Of a stretch of DNA of 64,000 nt, positions 17,328 through 42,136 are shown in pieces. The DNA is taken from positions 33,907-97,906 of the forward strand of contig JBBQVE010000003.1 in NCBI GenBank assembly GCA_038211855.1. Reading direction: 5' to 3'. Position numbers and translations under genes: made by a program. Below the pieces are notes generated by a model. It was not told the DNA's origin. It was given only the letters and a program-made list of their open reading frames with translations, and ran no database searches. Positions within the stretch are counted from its first letter, which is position 1, and each line of letters begins with the position of its first letter. The DNA is from Candidatus Saccharimonadales bacterium (GTDB lineage Bacteria > Patescibacteriota > Saccharimonadia > Saccharimonadales > SZUA-47).

Positions 17328-17403
17328 TGGTGGGGGTGGATGGACTTGAACCATCGACCAAAGGATTATGAGTCCTCTGCTCTAACCACTGAGCTACACC
17401 CCC
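17328..17403 (-). tRNA. tRNA-Ile2 (anticodon CAU, lysidine-type), CCA encoded
   Basis: Reverse complement GGGGGTGTAGCTCAGTGGTTAGAGCAGAGGACTCATAATCCTTTGGTCGATGGTTCAAGTCCATCCACCCCCACCA folds as a 76-nt cloverleaf. It closely resembles my recollection of E. coli ileX. A Met identity cannot be excluded from sequence alone. Confidence 0.85.
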
Positions 17404-22985: not shown

Positions 22986-23060
22986 CGCGGGATAGAGCAG
23001 TGGCAGCTCGTGTGGCTCATAACCACAAGGTCGCAGGTTCGAGTCCTGCTCCCGCTACCA
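22986..23060 (+). tRNA. tRNA-Met (anticodon CAU), initiator-like, CCA encoded
   Basis: CGCGGGATAGAGCAGTGGCAGCTCGTGTGGCTCATAACCACAAGGTCGCAGGTTCGAGTCCTGCTCCCGCTACCA forms a 75-nt cloverleaf. The unpaired 1:72 position (C:U) and overall similarity to bacterial tRNA-fMet (CGCGGG...GCTCATAACC...CCCGCAACCA) suggest initiator identity. Confidence 0.85.
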
Positions 23061-37526: not shown

Positions 37527-37603
37527 GGCGATGTAGCTCAGTTGGTTAGAGCACAGGACTCATAAGCCTGGGGTCACAAGTTCAAATCTTGTCATCGCTA
37601 CCA
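37527..37603 (+). tRNA. tRNA-Met (anticodon CAU), elongator-like, CCA encoded
   Basis: GGCGATGTAGCTCAGTTGGTTAGAGCACAGGACTCATAAGCCTGGGGTCACAAGTTCAAATCTTGTCATCGCTACCA forms a 77-nt cloverleaf. It closely resembles my recollection of E. coli elongator tRNA-Met. TGGTATAAT -10 at 37508-37516. Confidence 0.9.
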
Positions 37604-39101
37604 AATCAGAATTTATAGCCGATTCGTCGGCTATTTTCTTTAATAACAGATAAGAGTCTGTCAATTCAACGGTTCCAAAACCGGTTTCAAGGTCATACGG
37701 TACTCCAGACGGAAAAAGTAACTTCTGAATAGCTTGTCTACTTCTTGTGCTAGCTCGGTTCCAAAAAATATCTGGTGTTTTAATAAAACTCATAGCATCG
37801 TCGACTATTTGTTCTTTCTCTTTTACGTAGCTGTCCATTTCTGTTTTTTCTTGTTCTAGTAGTGCTATCTTATCGTCAATGCGTCTTAGTTGTTCGTCTC
37901 TATCATCTTCCGTAATCTTGTCTGCAATAAACTTATTATTAGTCGAGAATCTCAGCTCTTTATGCACTTCAATATCTCGATTCACTTGTGCCGCTGTTTC
38001 GAGCGCTTTACCGTATTCATCATTCCACTCCCTTAAAACCACTATCTTAAATAGTTTGGCAATCCCTTGATTTATCGGGCGTTTACTTTCCAGTAGTTCT
38101 CTAAAATGTTTGTGGACCATATCCGCATCTTGGCTAGATTTCTTGTGAGTTACAGATTTACGACAGGTTTTTCTTGGACAGTGATACATGGAGTAGTGGC
38201 CACCGTTACCATGAGGCGTGCTGGCAGAAAGGGGTAGGCTGCAGTTCGTACATAGCAGAGTGCCTCTTAATGGATAAAAGTCATCACCTTTAATAACAAA
38301 TACTCGTTTGTCTTTATTGATTATTTCTATATTCTTATATATCGTTTCCTCGCCTACTAAAGGTGTATGTCTACCTCTAATTATCTTGGTACTTAGTTTA
38401 TTTTTGGTATAACCAGCATAGAATAAGTTCACTAAAATTATCTTCATAGCATCATGGGCTTTTGGTTTTCCAGATTTTGTCTTTATACCATTATCAAATG
38501 CCATTCGAGAAATATCGGCTACACTGTAGGTTCCTTTTGAAAACTCAGTAAGTAATACTCGAATCTTGTCTGCATAATCAGGGTCGGGTACAACCGACCT
38601 GTTGACCTTTTTGTAGCCGATTGTAGCGCTGTGCGGCCATTCTCCTTGCTCTACACGCATTCTCATGCCTGTAAGGCTTCTAATAGCTCGTATTTCGTTA
38701 TCAAACTGTGCTGCAGCAGCTAGAATAGCCTCCAAGAACCTACCGACAGGGTCATCATCTATTGGCTCAGTGACTGAAATGATTTTAATGTCATATTTTG
38801 CTAAGGCAACCTTGATTCCGTAGTAGTCACCAAGATTTCTTGCTAGTCTGTCAATTTTCCAGATATAAAGTACATCAATTTTGCCTTTGTTATCTCTAAC
38901 AAATTGAAGCATACGCTGTAGCTCTGTGCGGTCAATAAACTTGGCCGATTCGCCTTCTTCCCTGAAAATGTGCGAATCAGGAACGGGTACTTCCTGCTTA
39001 CGGGCGAAGAGCTTACACTCTTTTTCTTGATTATCAAGACTAAGGCGTTTTTCGGCCTGTTCTTTTGTGGATACTCTTGTATAGATAATTCCTAGACCCA
39101 T
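37560..39101 (-). CDS. Large serine recombinase (integrase); last 14 codons are encoded by the antisense of tRNA-Met
   Basis: GIIYTRVSTKEQ (catalytic Ser), DRLARN, recombinase domain, Cys-rich zinc ribbon (CTNCSLPL...YHCPRKTC) and a coiled-coil region. The ORF ends ...SDLVAMTRFELVTPGL*, with the stop (TGA) in the tRNA anticodon loop. TATAAT lies 6 nt upstream of ATG 39101. Confidence 0.9.
   Translation of the reverse strand: MGLGIIYTRVSTKEQAEKRLSLDNQEKECKLFARKQEVPVPDSHIFREEGESAKFIDRTELQRMLQFVRDNKGKIDVLYIWKIDRLARNLGDYYGIKVALAKYDIKIISVTEPIDDDPVGRFLEAILAAAAQFDNEIRAIRSLTGMRMRVEQGEWPHSATIGYKKVNRSVVPDPDYADKIRVLLTEFSKGTYSVADISRMAFDNGIKTKSGKPKAHDAMKIILVNLFYAGYTKNKLSTKIIRGRHTPLVGEETIYKNIEIINKDKRVFVIKGDDFYPLRGTLLCTNCSLPLSASTPHGNGGHYSMYHCPRKTCRKSVTHKKSSQDADMVHKHFRELLESKRPINQGIAKLFKIVVLREWNDEYGKALETAAQVNRDIEVHKELRFSTNNKFIADKITEDDRDEQLRRIDDKIALLEQEKTEMDSYVKEKEQIVDDAMSFIKTPDIFWNRASTRSRQAIQKLLFPSGVPYDLETGFGTVELTDSYLLLKKIADESAINSDLVAMTRFELVTPGL
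37615..37641 (+). terminator. tRNA-Met terminator hairpin located inside the recombinase coding region
   Basis: ATAGCCGA-ttcg-TCGGCTAT + TTTCTTT, 12 nt after the CCA end. On the minus strand it encodes ...KKIADESAIN.... Confidence 0.5.
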
Positions 39102-39147
39102 GGAACCATTATACGACTAATATTTACAGGTTATAAGTGTTGATATT

Positions 39148-39300
39148 TTATTTTGGAACTGTTTGTTGTACGAAGTCTTTTGCAATTACTTCTAGGAGAG
39201 AAATAATATCCGCGATTTGCGCATCGGAAAACTCCTTATACGGTTTGCCGAGAAGCTTTCGTGCCTCTTTAATTGTAATTATTGGCGAATCTTGAGACAC
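39148..39300 (-). CDS. Candidate 50-aa protein between recombinase and DUF5681-like gene
   Basis: GTG start. Product VSQDSPIITIKEARKLLGKPYKEFSDAQIADIISLLEVIAKDFVQQTVPK looks protein-like. However, there is no SD and it starts right after a terminator hairpin (39303-39330). Confidence 0.3.
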   Translation of the reverse strand: MSQDSPIITIKEARKLLGKPYKEFSDAQIADIISLLEVIAKDFVQQTVPK

Positions 39301-39386
39301 AAAAGCCCTTCACAAAGTTAGAAGGGCTCTAGATACAAAACGGCCTATTAAGCCTATTGTATACTATCTAGACATAATACTAAAGC

Positions 39387-39710
39387 TTATTTTGTAGTAG
39401 TGTATCTTCTATGTACAATGATAAGTTTCTTATCCTCTTCCTCTCTAACCTGACCACTGTTGCCATAGCCGTGTCTTATGAGTAGTTCAGTAGCTCTTAA
39501 ATCTCCACGAATCGCCCTAACTATCATTCCCTTAATAATTGCTTCTATTGGCGTACCCAATGTTTCTTTTCCAAGAAGTGTATAACCAATTTCTACATCT
39601 TCGAGGAATTCTTTGATGTAACTGGAAACATGCTTAGAGCCTTTAGGTTTGCTGCCGCGTCGTATATCATATCCTTTTTTGAAAGGTTTAAGGTTTTGTT
39701 GATTTGCCAT
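39387..39710 (-). CDS. DUF5681-like phage/plasmid-associated protein
   Basis: The N-terminal NLKPFKKGYDIRRGSKPKGSK resembles the N..L.PFKKG....GRPKG motif of DUF5681. The rest is unassigned. Confidence 0.5.
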   Translation of the reverse strand: MANQQNLKPFKKGYDIRRGSKPKGSKHVSSYIKEFLEDVEIGYTLLGKETLGTPIEAIIKGMIVRAIRGDLRATELLIRHGYGNSGQVREEEDKKLIIVHRRYTTTK

Positions 39711-39828
39711 AATCTCACTGTATTCTCGCAGTAATTATTAATAAAAAAGCAACAAAGTGCTTGGCTAAGTTACCTAGGTAAACTATAGCACTCCTTGTCC
39801 AAGTCATCCGAAGGAGGTATGCTTAATT

Positions 39829-39934
39829 TGTCTTAAGCTAGCAGTAGTTTTCTAATTGCACATCAGTGCGGTTTTGCCATTAAATGGCATCCGTACAAAA
39901 GCAGTTAGGCAAAACCTACTGTTGGCTTAAGACA
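39829..39934. repeat. Nested inverted repeats in the divergent intergenic region of the element
   Basis: Outer arms TGTCTTAAGCTAGCAGTAG (39829-39847) / CTACTGTTGGCTTAAGACA (39916-39934), 17/19 complementary. Inner arms GGTTTTGCC (39870-78) / GGCAAAACC (39908-16). Preceded by AAGGAGG and a 5-codon mini-ORF (39819-39836). Confidence 0.5.
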
Positions 39935-39970
39935 CCTAGTACGGGTGCCTTTTTAGTTTAGGAGCATTTT

Positions 39971-40627
39971 ATGGAAAAACTGTTCGACGTAGAAGAACTT
40001 CATAAGACTTATCGTAAGAGAAAAATTAAAAAAGTTCTTCTTACTTTAGCTGCAGTTTCGCTTTTAATCGTAGTATCAAATAAGTATGTTCCAAGATTTA
40101 GTAATACAAGGTCTTCTTTAATTACTCCTACACAGACATCTGCCGAACCTGTATCTGTATTAGGTGAGAATAATACTAGAGTTAGTGGTTCTACATACAA
40201 TCCAGGACTTTCAAAAGACGAAGCCTTGGCAAAGCAGCAAGCCGCTCAGGCGCAACAACAACTTGATGCTGCAAACCAAAATCTAAAAAATGTATATCAG
40301 AATATTGGAAATACGGATTCGTATACTCCAACTACCGACTACTCATCAACTACTAGCAATAACACCTACAGTCCTCCAGGGGTAACAAATACACCGAAAC
40401 CAGTTTGCACGCCAAACCCACAGTTAGCTGGTTTAAGCGCTTCAATAGTTCAGGCTCAAGGTCAAATATCGGCTTTTAATGATAAGCTCAACACTCCTGG
40501 CGATATGTATGGCTACAATGCCTCTGGCTATGCTAATTATCGTGCGCAAGAAGGGCAGAGGTTACAGTCACAACTCAGCCAGCTACAAAGTCAATACAAC
40601 CAGCTAAAGGCACAGAGTAACTGTTAA
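39971..40627 (+). CDS. Membrane-anchored Q/N/S/T-rich hypothetical protein
   Basis: GGAG SD. TM LLTLAAVSLLIVV. Low-complexity coiled-coil-like Q-rich segments. Confidence 0.5.
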   Translation: MEKLFDVEELHKTYRKRKIKKVLLTLAAVSLLIVVSNKYVPRFSNTRSSLITPTQTSAEPVSVLGENNTRVSGSTYNPGLSKDEALAKQQAAQAQQQLDAANQNLKNVYQNIGNTDSYTPTTDYSSTTSNNTYSPPGVTNTPKPVCTPNPQLAGLSASIVQAQGQISAFNDKLNTPGDMYGYNASGYANYRAQEGQRLQSQLSQLQSQYNQLKAQSNC

Positions 40628-40710
40628 CCGTAAGTATCAAAATTACAATTTATTATATGGGCTAATAGCAAAAGTATGACGTATTAAATCTCCTAATGTA
40701 CTGAAGAAAT

Positions 40711-41019
40711 CTACTTAGCAGGAATTAGTGCAAAAGAGTCTGATGCTACCTTAAGCCCACTCTCTTTAATATAGTCTAGTTTCTCTTTAGCAGGCTTTTC
40801 TCTCAAGTTAATAGGCAGTCGAGAATTCAAATAGTAGAAAAGTTCATCACTTTCTGCGGTTTTAGAGTTGTTCGCTAGTGGAATAAAGCCGACCTGCTTC
40901 CAATAATTTGTAGGAATATTATCCGCTAATTCAAAAACAAACTTACCATTAAACACGACCGTTCCAATGGTCATATTTAATAATTCATCTTTTAAAATAA
41001 ATGTTACTGGCTTGCTCAC
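40711..41019 (-). CDS. HipS-like protein (resembles HipA N-terminal subdomain), encoded downstream of the kinase
   Basis: 102 aa. GTG start 3 nt after the kinase stop with GAGGGG SD. The segments ...IGTVVFNGKFVFE..., ...LFYYLNSRLP... and ...ASDSFALIPAK parallel my recollection of the HipA N-domain (vGeL...F.Y / fF.NLLP / DsvGAvtLIP). Inference. Confidence 0.5.
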   Translation of the reverse strand: MSKPVTFILKDELLNMTIGTVVFNGKFVFELADNIPTNYWKQVGFIPLANNSKTAESDELFYYLNSRLPINLREKPAKEKLDYIKESGLKVASDSFALIPAK

Positions 41020-41022
41020 GGT

Positions 41023-41985
41023 CTACCCCTCATAGATGCTTCTTAGTCTAGTGTAACGCATTATTAGGGACTTATATAGGAGTTTTCTTCGCCTTGTATC
41101 ATATTCTAAAATCTCCAAGCTAGGCATTTTAATCACTAAACCTGCGAGTTCCAGCATATCCATGTCTTTAACTCTTTTAAGGCTCTTCTTGAATCTTCTG
41201 CCCCAAGATGAGTTAGATTTTAAATGCTGTTCAATTAGTTCAAACATATTTGTTTTCTCTCTCTTTGAATTAAGGATAAATCCGTACTTACTGTTTTCAA
41301 CGTATCTCTTAAGTCTCTCTTCATCGTTCGTCATATTATCTATATCAGCATCACTTAACTCAAACATCAGACTGCTTCCATGGTCAAACAAAGGGGTAAA
41401 ATAACGTAAAGAAACTAACCTCTGTCGGTCAACTAAAATCTGCTGTCTATATTTTTGATAGGAGCAAATACCCCAGTTTTCGTGGTGTCTATCCATATTA
41501 CCTATCAGTGCATCAAATACGACCATATCTGCATAACTTTGCAGCAGGTCATCTGCAGCGTAGTACTTACCCTTTATTTTTTCTTCTATAGCTTCAAGTC
41601 TTAGTGGTTCAGATGGTGTTTCAACGATAGCTGCACCATAGGTTGTTTCTACCTTTTTAGGGAATATATTTCTAGCAAAGCTGCCCACAGGCTTCCAATT
41701 TCTTGGCAATATTCCTGGGTAACGGCTTCGCAAGACACTCTCTAGCCTTTTGGGCGTGGTTTTGATTGTTACTAACTGTGCATTCAATCCCATCAATTCT
41801 GCGATGTGTGACGCCAAGCACTCAGCCCAAACCTCGCGAGGTGTATGTGTGTACGTTTTGAAGAAAAAGATTTGTTTCTTATCTTTATGATAAAACGTAA
41901 GCCGAGGCCTACTACCGCCAACAACTTCAGCATGAACCGTACTATATCGATTCATATCGAGTTCGTTGACTGTAAAGTGTTTCAT
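41023..41985 (-). CDS. HipA-family serine/threonine kinase lacking the N-terminal subdomain (HipT-like)
   Basis: VVFDALIGNMDRHHENWG (catalytic loop, compare IGATDGHAKNFS), TPLFDHGSS (DxG-like) and GGSRPRL (Gly-rich loop). Confidence 0.75.
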   Translation of the reverse strand: MKHFTVNELDMNRYSTVHAEVVGGSRPRLTFYHKDKKQIFFFKTYTHTPREVWAECLASHIAELMGLNAQLVTIKTTPKRLESVLRSRYPGILPRNWKPVGSFARNIFPKKVETTYGAAIVETPSEPLRLEAIEEKIKGKYYAADDLLQSYADMVVFDALIGNMDRHHENWGICSYQKYRQQILVDRQRLVSLRYFTPLFDHGSSLMFELSDADIDNMTNDEERLKRYVENSKYGFILNSKREKTNMFELIEQHLKSNSSWGRRFKKSLKRVKDMDMLELAGLVIKMPSLEILEYDTRRRKLLYKSLIMRYTRLRSIYEG

Positions 41986-42031
41986 ATCCTACTAACAGTA
42001 TAGTCTAAGGCTATAGTTCAAAGCCTTCCGC

Positions 42032-42136
42032 TCACACTTTAACAGTAGTTTCTTCCCTTACTGTATTAACTATCTGCCACATGGCTATCAGCTCTCGCTT
42101 TATTTGGTTCCAATTCGTTCCTATCACGCCTACCAT
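42032..42136 (-). repeat. Tail unit U-Met-1 (right end of the integrative element; predicted alternative recombinase C-terminus)
   Basis: The minus-strand frame from ATGGTAGGC reads MVGVIGTNWNQIKRELIAMWQIVNTVREETTVKV*. It is in the same frame relative to TGGTA as the recombinase ...SDLVA. Confidence 0.6.

What the first reader, a model, noticed from the sequence alone, without database searches (positions are those of the whole stretch)
40711..41985. Split HipA-like kinase in reversed order (kinase first, HipS-like N-domain second) and without a HipB-type HTH gene
The 320-aa protein has HipA C-terminal kinase motifs (IGNMDRHHENWG, TPLFDHGSS) but lacks the HipA N-terminal subdomain.

The 102-aa ORF starts 3 nt after its stop, with its own GAGGGG SD. 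Its segment pattern is that of the HipA N-terminal subdomain (beta-hairpin ...IGTVVFNGKFVFE..., ...LFYYLNSRLP..., C-terminal ...DSFALIPAK).

In the described tripartite HipBST system the order is hipB-hipS-hipT, and HipS acts as the antitoxin. Here the order is kinase then HipS-like. No HTH gene is adjacent: upstream of 41985 is only ~50 nt before the tail unit. The pair rides on the tRNA-Met island.

This may be a permuted bipartite kinase toxin-antitoxin or defence module.
Basis: inference. Interest (0 to 1): 0.6.

Follow-up and report, generated by a model that had tools for sequence, protein, structure and literature searches.

The report
HipJS-type kinase and HipS-like partner
Two adjacent genes on a small mobile island encode a short HipA-family protein kinase followed by a small protein folded like HipA's missing N-terminal lobe; this gene order was already described by sequence analysis in 2021 (hipJS), so the pair is a new, untested lineage of a known kind.

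Summary
A 320-aa ORF (41985..41023, minus strand) is followed, after TAG plus 3 nt, by a 102-aa GTG-start ORF (41019..40711).

The 320-aa protein is a HipA-superfamily core kinase. Its AlphaFold2 model (pLDDT 90) matches CtkA best, then HipA and HipT, and the catalytic motifs are invariant across the family.

The 102-aa protein has no Pfam hit. Its model's best PDB matches are the HipA N-terminal lobe and Legionella HipS (probability 0.98). A profile comparison with HipA N-subdomain-1 gives P = 3.8e-4, against 0.2-0.7 for shuffled controls.

The pair is conserved as a unit in 18 of 18 Patescibacteria loci, in all three relative reading frames, with no helix-turn-helix (HTH) gene attached.

The "reversed, HipB-less" layout is not new. 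Gerdes et al. 2021 (PMC8262856) defined hipJS (kinase, then HipS) and hipIN (kinase, then HipS-HIRAN). PADLOC lists the hipIN type as the untested defence candidate PDC-M03, and the window kinase hits PDC-M03A at 5.5e-35.

The most likely function is a kinase toxin held in check by a HipS-like inhibitor, carried as cargo on a serine-recombinase island next to tRNA-Met. Toxicity, rescue and binding are untested.

One side lead: in several Saccharibacteria lineages the pair sits directly downstream of the glycyl-tRNA synthetase gene.

The parts
41023..41985 (-). HipA-superfamily core Ser/Thr kinase of 320 aa (HipJ/HipI-like, CtkA-like) without N-subdomain-1. Gly-rich loop GGSRPR (residues 23-28), K43, catalytic loop GNMDRHHENW (162-171: D165, N170), Mg-binding PLFDHGSS (D201).
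   Evidence: PADLOC PDC-M03A 5.5e-35. Pfam HipA_C 23.3 bits and HipA_2 22.4 bits, both below the curated cut-offs. Family profile against PDB: CtkA 1e-10. AlphaFold2 model pLDDT 90.2, pTM 0.90. Foldseek: CtkA 5e-14, HipA 3.6e-6, HipT 1e-5 to 3e-5. Motif residues invariant in 63 sequences. Motifs aligned to HipA D309/N314/D332.
40711..41019 (-). HipS-like protein of 102 aa (HipA N-subdomain-1 fold), GTG start. Invariant W40, G44, R67, P69, R73, D94. Putative inhibitor or partner of the kinase.
   Evidence: No Pfam or NCBIfam hit. AlphaFold2 model pLDDT 82.9. Best Foldseek PDB matches are HipA 3tpd, Legionella HipS 8ezr_A, and HipA 3hzi and 2wiu (probability 0.82-0.98, TM about 0.56). hhalign against a HipA N-subdomain-1 profile: P = 3.8e-4 over 83 colinear columns; controls P 0.2-0.7. 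Weak PADLOC PDC-M03B hit, N-terminal part only, in 18 of 32 family members.
41026..41031 (-). Shine-Dalgarno-like GAGGGG inside the last two kinase codons, 6 nt before the GTG start of the small gene. The junction is TAG + ACC + GTG, with both ORFs in the same frame.
   Evidence: Read directly from the sequence. In relatives the gap ranges from -35 to +22 nt and all three relative frames occur, which argues for two coupled genes rather than read-through.
37527..37603 (+). tRNA-Met (CAT) at the left edge of the island.
   Evidence: ARAGORN. The last 14 codons of the recombinase ORF overlap its 3' end.
37560..39101 (-). Large serine recombinase of 513 aa, the presumed integrase of the island that carries the module.
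   Evidence: Pfam Resolvase 3.8e-29 plus Recombinase 1.2e-4. L002 has a comparable layout of tRNA-Lys, serine recombinase, then the kinase pair.
37604..42100 (.). Low-GC island of about 4.5 kb. Contents: recombinase, a 50-aa ORF, a 107-aa ORF with a weak DUF5681 hit, a 218-aa ORF of unknown family, and the kinase pair. The right end is approximate.
   Evidence: GC 0.34-0.43 inside the island against 0.46-0.49 in the flanks. The flanking genes are housekeeping: a CNNM/CBS protein on the left; histidine phosphatase, NUDIX, HD, TilS and FtsH on the right. No long direct repeat marks the ends.

Best explanation
This is a hipJS-type two-gene Hip kinase module, a Patescibacteria lineage of the kinase-first, HipB-less arrangements defined by Gerdes et al. 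2021.

Shown here:
- Gene 1 is a core HipA-superfamily Ser/Thr kinase that lacks N-subdomain-1 and keeps every catalytic motif.
- Gene 2 is a roughly 100-aa protein with the fold of that missing lobe (HipS).
- The two genes are tightly coupled and travel together as a unit. In this window they are cargo of a 4.5-kb serine-recombinase island next to tRNA-Met.

Inferred by analogy with HipBST:
- The small protein docks on the kinase where N-subdomain-1 sits in HipA.
- It holds the Gly-rich loop in an inactive state and so acts as an antitoxin.
- When it is lost or displaced (loss of the island, or phage infection), the kinase phosphorylates an essential translation component, most likely an aminoacyl-tRNA synthetase, and growth stops. 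This would give island maintenance, abortive-infection defence, or both.

Because there is no DNA-binding partner, any control would have to act at the protein level or through translational coupling, not through HipB-type autorepression.
For: Kinase identity:
- PADLOC PDC-M03A 5.5e-35.
- CtkA 1e-10 with the family profile.
- Model pLDDT 90 with Foldseek hits to CtkA, HipA and HipT at probability 1.00.
- Invariant G24, R26, P27, R28, K43, D165, N170, D201, placed on HipA D309/N314/D332.

Partner identity:
- The best PDB matches are the HipA N-lobe or HipS: ranks 1-3 and 5, at probability 0.82-0.98 and TM about 0.56. The viral structure library gives nothing comparable.
- hhalign against a HipA N-subdomain-1 profile gives P = 3.8e-4, against 0.2-0.7 for reversed or shuffled controls.
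- 18 of 32 family members hit the N-terminal, HipS-like part of PDC-M03B.

Unit character:
- The kinase and small gene are the only genes shared by all 18 loci.
- Gaps range from -35 to +22 nt.

Context:
- Other relatives sit beside a Type ISP restriction enzyme and an AAA_15/DUF4435 ATPase (L028); beside a Y1 transposase, a faint Zeta-toxin hit and a Phd/PIN pair (L031); and near Fic/Doc genes.

Precedent:
- hipJS and hipIN were described with putative HipS-type antitoxins downstream of the kinase (PMC8262856).
- HipS is the experimentally shown antitoxin of HipT and occupies the N-subdomain-1 position (bioRxiv 10.1101/2022.01.28.478185).
Against: - Nothing here tests toxicity, rescue or binding.
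- In full-length HipA the same lobe is an integral part of an active kinase, so a HipS fold alone does not prove an inhibitor.
- If the hhalign register and my reading of the LLP[ED] motif hold, the family has Ile70 and Leu72 where HipS of E. coli has Glu63 and Trp65 (the residues named). Any inhibitory contact would then differ.
- The Foldseek E-values for the small protein are weak (0.06-0.4), and its sequence matches no Pfam Couple_hipA model.
- In at least three Saccharibacteria lineages the pair lies immediately downstream of glyQS, overlapping its stop codon in four of seven loci, inside a housekeeping gene cluster. That fits a domesticated regulator better than a selfish toxin.
- No relatives were found on viral contigs.
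Confidence: 0.6

Rival explanations
1. A split two-subunit kinase with no toxin-antitoxin relationship. The small protein is the structural or activating N-lobe, as in full-length HipA. The holoenzyme would be a regulatory kinase of translation, for example acting on glycyl-tRNA synthetase, that has been domesticated in Patescibacteria. The copy in this window would simply be a horizontally moved instance.
For: - In HipA the homologous lobe is part of the active enzyme (PMC8262856).
- recO-(x)-glyQS-kinase-small is conserved in L008, L009, L010, L014, L015, L026 and L027. The kinase abuts glyQS in all seven loci and overlaps its stop codon in four of them.
- GlyRS identity between those lineages is only 62-68%, which implies long retention in genomes that are typically very small.
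- The glyQS-linked kinases include the deepest branch of the family tree.
- Another relative sits after rnpA-yidC-jag.
- There is no DNA-binding autoregulator, which is unusual for type II toxin-antitoxin systems.
Against: - The window copy and its closest relatives are in mobile, toxin-antitoxin or defence neighbourhoods, not next to glyQS.
- All experimentally studied split Hip systems use HipS as the inhibitor.
- Adjacency to a tRNA synthetase gene may be inherited synteny with no functional meaning.
Confidence: 0.2
2. A dedicated anti-phage abortive-infection system, a HIRAN-less version of PADLOC candidate PDC-M03 (hipIN). The HipS-like protein would be the sensor that a phage factor displaces. 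The primary role would be phage defence, not maintenance of the island.
For: - The kinase hits PDC-M03A at 5.5e-35, and the small protein hits the N-terminal part of PDC-M03B.
- The Dehalococcoidia relatives are full PDC-M03 pairs.
- PDC systems were nominated because they are embedded in BREX, DISARM, type I restriction-modification or Hma loci (bioRxiv 10.1101/2024.01.29.577857).
- L028 lies next to a Type ISP restriction enzyme and an AAA_15/DUF4435 ATPase.
- L032 lies next to a PLD-SNF2 helicase.
Against: - PDC systems are explicitly untested candidates.
- The HIRAN domain, the proposed DNA-end sensor of hipIN, is absent here.
- The 4.5-kb island holds no other recognisable defence gene.
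- Several relatives lie in housekeeping contexts.
Confidence: 0.15
3. A secreted effector kinase like Helicobacter pylori CtkA, used by an epibiotic Saccharibacteria-type cell against its host bacterium. The small protein would act as a chaperone or immunity factor.
For: CtkA is the closest solved structure and the closest sequence relative in the PDB. The Legionella HipT homologue Lpg2370 was first annotated as an effector (PMC9325769 abstract).
Against: No secretion signal or secretion-system neighbour was seen. The partner has the HipS fold typical of intracellular Hip modules. Conserved tight coupling of the two genes fits toxin-antitoxin logic. The host of this window was not identified directly.
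Confidence: 0.04

Closest known systems
hipJS modules (HipJ kinase plus downstream HipS-like putative antitoxin; Gerdes, Baerentsen & Brodersen 2021, mBio, PMC8262856)
   Same: Short core kinase without N-subdomain-1, with the Gly-rich loop near the N-terminus and a length within the reported 279-321 aa. A HipS-only gene of about 100 aa lies immediately downstream. There is no HTH or DNA-binding partner. All four kinase motifs are present.
   Different: hipJS was defined from only 2 of 1,239 modules, and the stored part of the supplementary tables names no Patescibacteria. This small protein has no detectable Couple_hipA sequence match. The kinase is closest to CtkA.
hipIN modules / PADLOC candidate PDC-M03 (HipI kinase plus HipN, a HipS-like domain fused to HIRAN)
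   Same: Same gene order. The kinase is recognisably homologous (PDC-M03A 5.5e-35; tblastn to L018 at 28% identity, 6e-14). The partner's N-terminal domain is weakly matched.
   Different: The partner here is about 100 aa and lacks the HIRAN domain, in contrast to L018 and L020, where Pfam HIRAN scores 2.5e-4 to 7e-4. Gerdes et al. speculated that hipJS arose from hipIN by loss of HIRAN.
HipBST of E. coli O127 and Legionella pneumophila (PDB 7AB3, 8EZR, 7VKB)
   Same: A split HipA: a core kinase (HipT) plus a separate HipS with the N-subdomain-1 fold. HipS (8ezr_A) and HipT (8ezr_B, 7ab3) are among the Foldseek matches of the two models.
   Different: The gene order is B-S-T, with HipS upstream, and a HipB HTH protein is present. 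Here the order is kinase then HipS-like, with no HTH gene. If the register holds, the family has I70 and L72 at the positions of HipS Glu63 and Trp65. Sequence identity is 8-15%.
HipBA (E. coli K-12 HipA/HipB)
   Same: Kinase fold and catalytic motifs. The small protein aligns colinearly with HipA residues of roughly 10-110.
   Different: In HipA the N-lobe is fused N-terminally to the kinase. The antitoxin is the HTH protein HipB, encoded upstream. Neither feature is present here.
CtkA (JHP0940) of Helicobacter pylori, PDB 3AKJ
   Same: It is the best structural and sequence match of the kinase (TM 0.68-0.79, E 5e-14; profile E 1e-10). It is a HipA-like core kinase of similar length.
   Different: It is named a proinflammatory kinase in its PDB entry. 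It has been described as a secreted, cell-translocating kinase, with no HipS-like partner that I know of (my own knowledge, not checked here). Identity is only 15-16%.

Membership tests
HipA-superfamily kinases (Pfam HipA_C PF07804 / HipA_2 PF20613) | Score above the Pfam gathering threshold | tested here: not met
   HipA_C scores 23.3 bits against a cut-off of 30.5. HipA_2 scores 22.4 against 27. Many close relatives carry precomputed PF07804 or PF20613 hits, so this sequence is a sub-threshold member of a family that does match.
HipA-superfamily kinases | HipA/CtkA kinase fold | tested here: met
   AlphaFold2 model pLDDT 90.2, pTM 0.90. Foldseek: CtkA 5e-14 (TM 0.68-0.79), HipA 3.6e-6, HipT 1e-5 to 3e-5, all at probability 1.00.
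HipA-superfamily kinases | Gly-rich loop, ATP-binding Lys, catalytic D..N motif and Mg-binding Asp all conserved | tested here: met
   G24, R26, P27, R28, K43, D165, N170 and D201 are invariant in 63 sequences. GNMDRHHENW aligns with HipA GATDGHAKNF, and PLFDHGS with PFYDIIS.
HipS / HipA N-subdomain-1 (Pfam Couple_hipA PF13657) | Sequence match to the Pfam model | tested here: not met
   No Couple_hipA hit for any of 32 family members, even at E <= 10. No PDB sequence hit with the family profile. An exhaustive HMM search found only 18 cluster representatives; 17 are 64-110 aa, and the other is a 2,172-aa repeat protein.
HipS / HipA N-subdomain-1 | Same fold, colinear with the HipA N-lobe | tested here: met
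   The Foldseek PDB matches at ranks 1-3 and 5 are HipA and HipS (probability 0.82-0.98, TM about 0.56). hhalign P = 3.8e-4 over 83 columns, against 0.2-0.7 for controls. The viral library gave no comparable hit.
HipS / HipA N-subdomain-1 | Binds the core kinase at the N-subdomain-1 site and inhibits it | not testable with these tools
No biochemical data exist.
hipJS organisation (Gerdes et al. 2021) | Short core kinase followed by a downstream HipS-only gene, with no DNA-binding partner | tested here: met
   The window and 17 of 17 related Patescibacteria loci. The definition is quoted.
hipJS organisation (Gerdes et al. 2021) | Kinase falls in the HipJ subclade of main clade XI | not testable with these tools
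   The stored copy of Table S1 is truncated and holds no HipJ entries. The affinity to HipI-type kinases is compatible with clade XI but is not a phylogenetic placement.
HipBST | Tricistronic hipB-hipS-hipT with an HTH HipB and hipS upstream of the kinase | tested here: not met
   The order here is kinase then HipS-like, with no HTH gene next to the pair here or in relatives.
PADLOC PDC-M03 (hipIN type) | An A protein (kinase) and a B protein (HipS-like domain plus HIRAN, about 230-260 aa) | tested here: inconclusive
   The A protein is met (5.5e-35). The B protein matches only at E = 8.8e-4, over residues 16-75 against profile positions 23-83 of 232. The HIRAN half is absent. True PDC-M03B proteins score 1e-65.
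Type II toxin-antitoxin system | A toxic protein neutralised by its cognate partner | not testable with these tools
   This needs expression and rescue assays.

The most novel reading that the evidence does not exclude
The family is not, or not only, a selfish toxin-antitoxin cassette. It may be a domesticated split Hip kinase that regulates translation in Patescibacteria through an aminoacyl-tRNA synthetase. The glyQS-kinase-HipS-like arrangement seen in several Saccharibacteria lineages, abutting in all and overlapping in some, would then point to GlyRS as the substrate, and the HipS-like subunit would be a regulatory lobe of the kinase, not an antidote.
Probability: 0.12. Interest if true: 0.65.

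Novelty: new member of a known kind. Interest (0 to 1): 0.35.

Why it matters
hipJS was defined from only two examples, and none of the clade XI Hip modules had been tested when it was described. This window belongs to a well-populated family found almost only in Patescibacteria: 192 kinase homologues and 74 partners. It shows that the kinase-first, HipS-only layout is a stable, mobile unit.

The family offers compact material (320 + 102 aa) for asking whether a HipS-like lobe alone can serve as an antitoxin without any DNA-binding partner. The recurrent position just downstream of glyQS gives a concrete, testable guess at a substrate.

For annotation, the result gives a name to two "hypothetical protein" families that are common in Saccharibacteria genomes. 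It is not a new kind of system.

Tried and rejected
- Programmed read-through or an ancestral fusion. In the window the two ORFs are in one frame, separated only by TAG plus ACC. In relatives the relative frame is 0, 1 or 2 and the gap ranges from -35 to +22 nt. No fused proteins turned up in an exhaustive HMM search. Rejected.
- A third conserved gene, such as a hidden HipB. All-against-all clustering of ORFs of at least 50 aa within about 3 kb across 18 loci found only the two genes shared by all. Rejected.
- Sequence-level links of the small protein. Pfam, NCBIfam, a PDB phmmer search and a PDB profile search found nothing. hhalign against a single HipA sequence gave E = 0.02 at 2% probability. 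hhalign against four HipN sequences gave E = 0.31. Only a 15-sequence HipA N-lobe profile gave signal.
- Complex prediction. The tool refuses translations containing a stop codon and any sequence not in its records, so binding could not be modelled.
- Phage origin. No relative was found in IMG/VR, and the small protein has no structural relative in BFVD.
- Island ends. No direct repeat of 14 nt or more. The only match is 8 nt (AGTTCAAA) between the tRNA T-loop region and 42015. The right boundary is therefore set only by GC content and gene content.
- Host identity. A Saccharibacteria-like host is inferred only from the nearest homologues.
- HipJ sequences from Table S1 of PMC8262856. They are not in the stored, truncated part of the file.
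Full report
**1. Observation**

The junction reads GAGGGG (41031-41026), TAG (41025-41023), ACC, GTG (41019). The second gene therefore starts 3 nt after the first one's stop, with a Shine-Dalgarno-like motif 6 nt upstream.

Both genes are real.
- The kinase has 192 homologues at E <= 1e-3 and the small protein has 74. Many lie on the same contigs.
- The small protein has 24 invariant columns in 46 sequences.
- Its relatives start M[SGAT]KP[VI]TF, which confirms the GTG start.

**2. The kinase**

- Pfam HipA_C (23.3 bits) and HipA_2 (22.4 bits) both fall below their curated cut-offs, although many close relatives carry these annotations.
- PADLOC gives a clear match to PDC-M03A (5.5e-35).
- A family profile finds H. 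pylori CtkA in the PDB at 1e-10.
- An AlphaFold2 model built on 63 sequences is confident (pLDDT 90.2, pTM 0.90). Its Foldseek matches are CtkA (E 5e-14, TM 0.68-0.79), then HipA (3.6e-6), then HipT of Legionella and E. coli (1e-5 to 3e-5).
- The Gly-rich loop GGSRPR, K43, the catalytic loop GNMDRHHENW and the Mg site PLFDHGSS are invariant or nearly so. They align with HipA D309, N314 and D332.
- The Gly-rich loop begins at residue 23, so there is no N-subdomain-1.

**3. The 102-aa protein**

Sequence methods alone find almost nothing.
- No Pfam or NCBIfam hit, and no Couple_hipA hit for any of 32 members even at E <= 10.
- Nothing in the PDB by sequence or by profile.
- An exhaustive HMM search of 1.84 billion cluster representatives returns only 18 proteins. 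Seventeen are 64-110 aa; the other is a 2,172-aa repeat protein.

Structure and profile comparison do give an answer.
- The AlphaFold2 model is good (pLDDT 82.9, pTM 0.69).
- Among 350,542 PDB chains, its best matches are the N-terminal lobe of HipA (3tpd, 3hzi, 2wiu) and HipS of Legionella (8ezr_A), at ranks 1-3 and 5. Probabilities are 0.82-0.98 and TM about 0.56, though E-values are weak at 0.06-0.4.
- The same model finds nothing comparable among viral structures.
- As an independent test, I built a profile from 15 HipA N-subdomain-1 sequences taken from Table S1 of PMC8262856. hhalign against the small-protein family gives P = 3.8e-4 over 83 colinear columns. One reversed and twelve column-shuffled controls give P 0.2-0.7.
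- By my reading of that alignment, the family's conserved W40, IPL, LNSRLP and G..V.SD..L.P segments fall on the HipA W, LPL, NLLPE and G.D..GA..F.P motifs.
- Eighteen of 32 members also touch the N-terminal part of PADLOC PDC-M03B.

**4. Is it a unit?**

- One scan of species-representative genomes returned 24 loci. In all 17 Patescibacteria loci (Saccharibacteria, Gracilibacteria, Peribacteria, Moranbacteria) the kinase is followed at once by a homologue of the 102-aa protein.
- The gap ranges from -35 to +22 nt and the relative frame is 0, 1 or 2. The in-frame TAG-ACC junction in this window is therefore incidental and does not indicate read-through.
- All-against-all clustering of neighbouring ORFs shows that these two genes are the only ones shared by all 18 loci. 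No HTH gene travels with them.

**5. Comparison with what is known**

- Gerdes, Baerentsen and Brodersen (mBio 2021, PMC8262856) had already sorted 1,239 Hip modules into ten gene organisations.
- Their main clade XI contains short core kinases that have downstream partners:
  - hipIN: HipI plus HipN, a HipS-like domain fused to HIRAN.
  - hipJS: HipJ plus a HipS-only protein, with no DNA-binding partner.
  - hipL: kinase, HipS-like domain and HIRAN fused in one protein.
- None of these had been tested experimentally. hipJS rested on 2 modules and hipIN on 14, and the stored tables name no Patescibacteria.
- The distant relatives found here in Dehalococcoidia and SAR202 (L018, L020-L022) are textbook hipIN. 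The kinase overlaps a 251-258-aa partner by 1-4 nt; for L018 and L020 that partner scores Pfam HIRAN 2.5e-4 to 7e-4 and PDC-M03B about 1e-65.
- PADLOC PDC-M03 is thus the hipIN type. PDC systems are untested "guilt-by-embedding" candidates (bioRxiv 10.1101/2024.01.29.577857).
- The window pair meets the organisational definition of hipJS. Whether its kinase falls in the HipJ clade could not be tested, because those sequences are not in the stored part of the table.

**6. Context**

In the window:
- The pair lies on a low-GC stretch of about 4.5 kb.
- On the left is tRNA-Met (37527-37603) with a 513-aa large serine recombinase.
- On the right are housekeeping genes: histidine phosphatase, NUDIX, HD, TilS and FtsH.
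- L002 has the same design at a tRNA-Lys.

Elsewhere the cassette sits in varied places.
- Next to a Type ISP restriction enzyme and an AAA_15/DUF4435 ATPase (L028).
- Among a Y1 transposase, a faint Zeta-toxin hit and a Phd/PIN pair (L031).
- Near Fic/Doc genes.
- Beside a PLD-SNF2 helicase (L032).
- After rnpA-yidC-jag (L029).
- Divergent from ksgA-metG (L030).
- No relatives occur on IMG/VR viral contigs.

**7. An unexpected recurrent context**

- In L008, L009 (a complete oral Saccharibacteria genome), L010, L014, L015, L026 and L027, the pair lies directly downstream of the glycyl-tRNA synthetase gene. NCBIfam glycine--tRNA ligase scores 1e-172 to 1e-180 for the three proteins scanned (L008, L009, L014). 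The other calls rest on homology to these or on Pfam class II tRNA synthetase domains.
- The kinase is on the same strand. Its start overlaps the synthetase stop codon in L009, L010, L014 and L015; a gap of about 20 nt separates them in L008, L026 and L027. recO lies further upstream.
- GlyRS identity between the lineages is 62-68% and kinase identity 39-57%.
- In a neighbour-joining tree the glyQS-linked kinases form two groups, one of them the deepest branch of the family.
- Characterised Hip kinases act on aminoacyl-tRNA synthetases: HipA on GltX, HipT on TrpS (PMC8262856). This adjacency may therefore hint at a substrate, or at a domesticated role. It may equally be inherited synteny.

**8. 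Mechanism**

Shown: a catalytically intact HipA-type core kinase; a partner with the fold of the missing lobe; tight coupling of the two genes; mobility as a unit; and absence of a DNA-binding component.

Inferred from HipBST:
- There, HipS occupies the N-subdomain-1 position and blocks the Gly-rich loop with Trp65 (bioRxiv 10.1101/2022.01.28.478185). By analogy, the 102-aa protein would inhibit the kinase by direct binding.
- Its loss would then free the kinase to arrest translation.
- If the register and my reading of the LLP[ED] motif hold, the family has I70 and L72, followed by an invariant R73, where HipS has Glu63 and Trp65. The contact would have to differ in detail.
- The main rival is that the small protein is simply the kinase's N-lobe and that the complex is an active regulatory kinase. 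The glyQS linkage is the best argument for that view.

**9. Verdict**

The arrangement is a known kind (hipJS-type), so this is a new, divergent and well-populated Patescibacteria member of it. Interest is moderate to low. The value lies in annotation, in providing a compact test case for HipS-only control of a Hip kinase, and in the glyQS lead.

Noticed in passing
L008 4619-7293; L009 4379-7299; L010 4616-7295; L014 4659-7339; L015 4659-7333; L026 2619-5293; L027 2658-5288: In several Saccharibacteria lineages the kinase and HipS-like pair lies directly downstream of glyQS (glycine--tRNA ligase) on the same strand. The kinase start overlaps the glyQS stop in L009, L010, L014 and L015 and lies about 20 nt after it in L008, L026 and L027; recO is further upstream. 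Known Hip kinases phosphorylate aminoacyl-tRNA synthetases, so this may hint at the substrate or at a domesticated role.
   Followed up: partly
window 41017-41031: The kinase and small ORFs are in the same reading frame, separated only by TAG plus one codon (ACC). Relatives use all three relative frames, so this looks incidental, not read-through.
   Followed up: yes
window 42005-42035 and 37570-37603: An 8-nt match (AGTTCAAA) to the T-loop region of tRNA-Met lies inside a small hairpin-like stretch (AAGGCTATAGTTCAAAGCCTT) about 30 nt upstream of the kinase start. It may be a remnant of the attachment site or of a displaced tRNA 3' end. The recombinase ORF also runs 14 codons into the tRNA 3' end.
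   Followed up: partly
L028 1-3930: A relative of the pair sits immediately after a 1,035-aa Type ISP restriction-modification enzyme (N6_Mtase, Eco57I, Type_ISP_C) and an AAA_15/AAA_21/DUF4435 ATPase. This is a defence-island-like neighbourhood.
   Followed up: no
L031 100-7529; L017 4897-5859; L009 8890-9279: Other toxin-antitoxin or mobile genes cluster near relatives of the pair: a Y1 transposase, a faint Zeta-toxin hit, a Phd/PIN pair, a RhuM-Fic fusion, and Fic/Doc genes.
   Followed up: no
window 39971-40627 (+); L025 417-1073: A 218-aa island ORF has an N-terminal hydrophobic segment and a Gln/Ser/Thr-rich body, with no hit in Pfam or NCBIfam. A 218-aa gene in the corresponding position next to the small gene is called on an independent Logan contig (SRR19962015); its sequence was not compared.
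   Followed up: partly
P0206 (2,172 aa; residues 509-542 and ten further stretches): A giant protein carries 11 repeats that match positions 4-37 (the beta-hairpin part) of the small-protein profile at E = 3.8e-11. This is probably a repetitive beta-hairpin coincidence and was not examined.
   Followed up: no
window 17328-17403 (-), 22986-23060 (+), 37527-37603 (+): There are three tRNA-Met (CAT) genes within 20 kb of the window. Only the third borders the island studied here.
   Followed up: no
window 39387-39710 (-) and 39148-39300 (-): Two small island ORFs lie between the recombinase and the 218-aa ORF. The 107-aa one has a weak DUF5681 hit (5.1e-4, below the cut-off). The 50-aa one has no hit at all. 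Neither is next to the kinase.
   Followed up: partly
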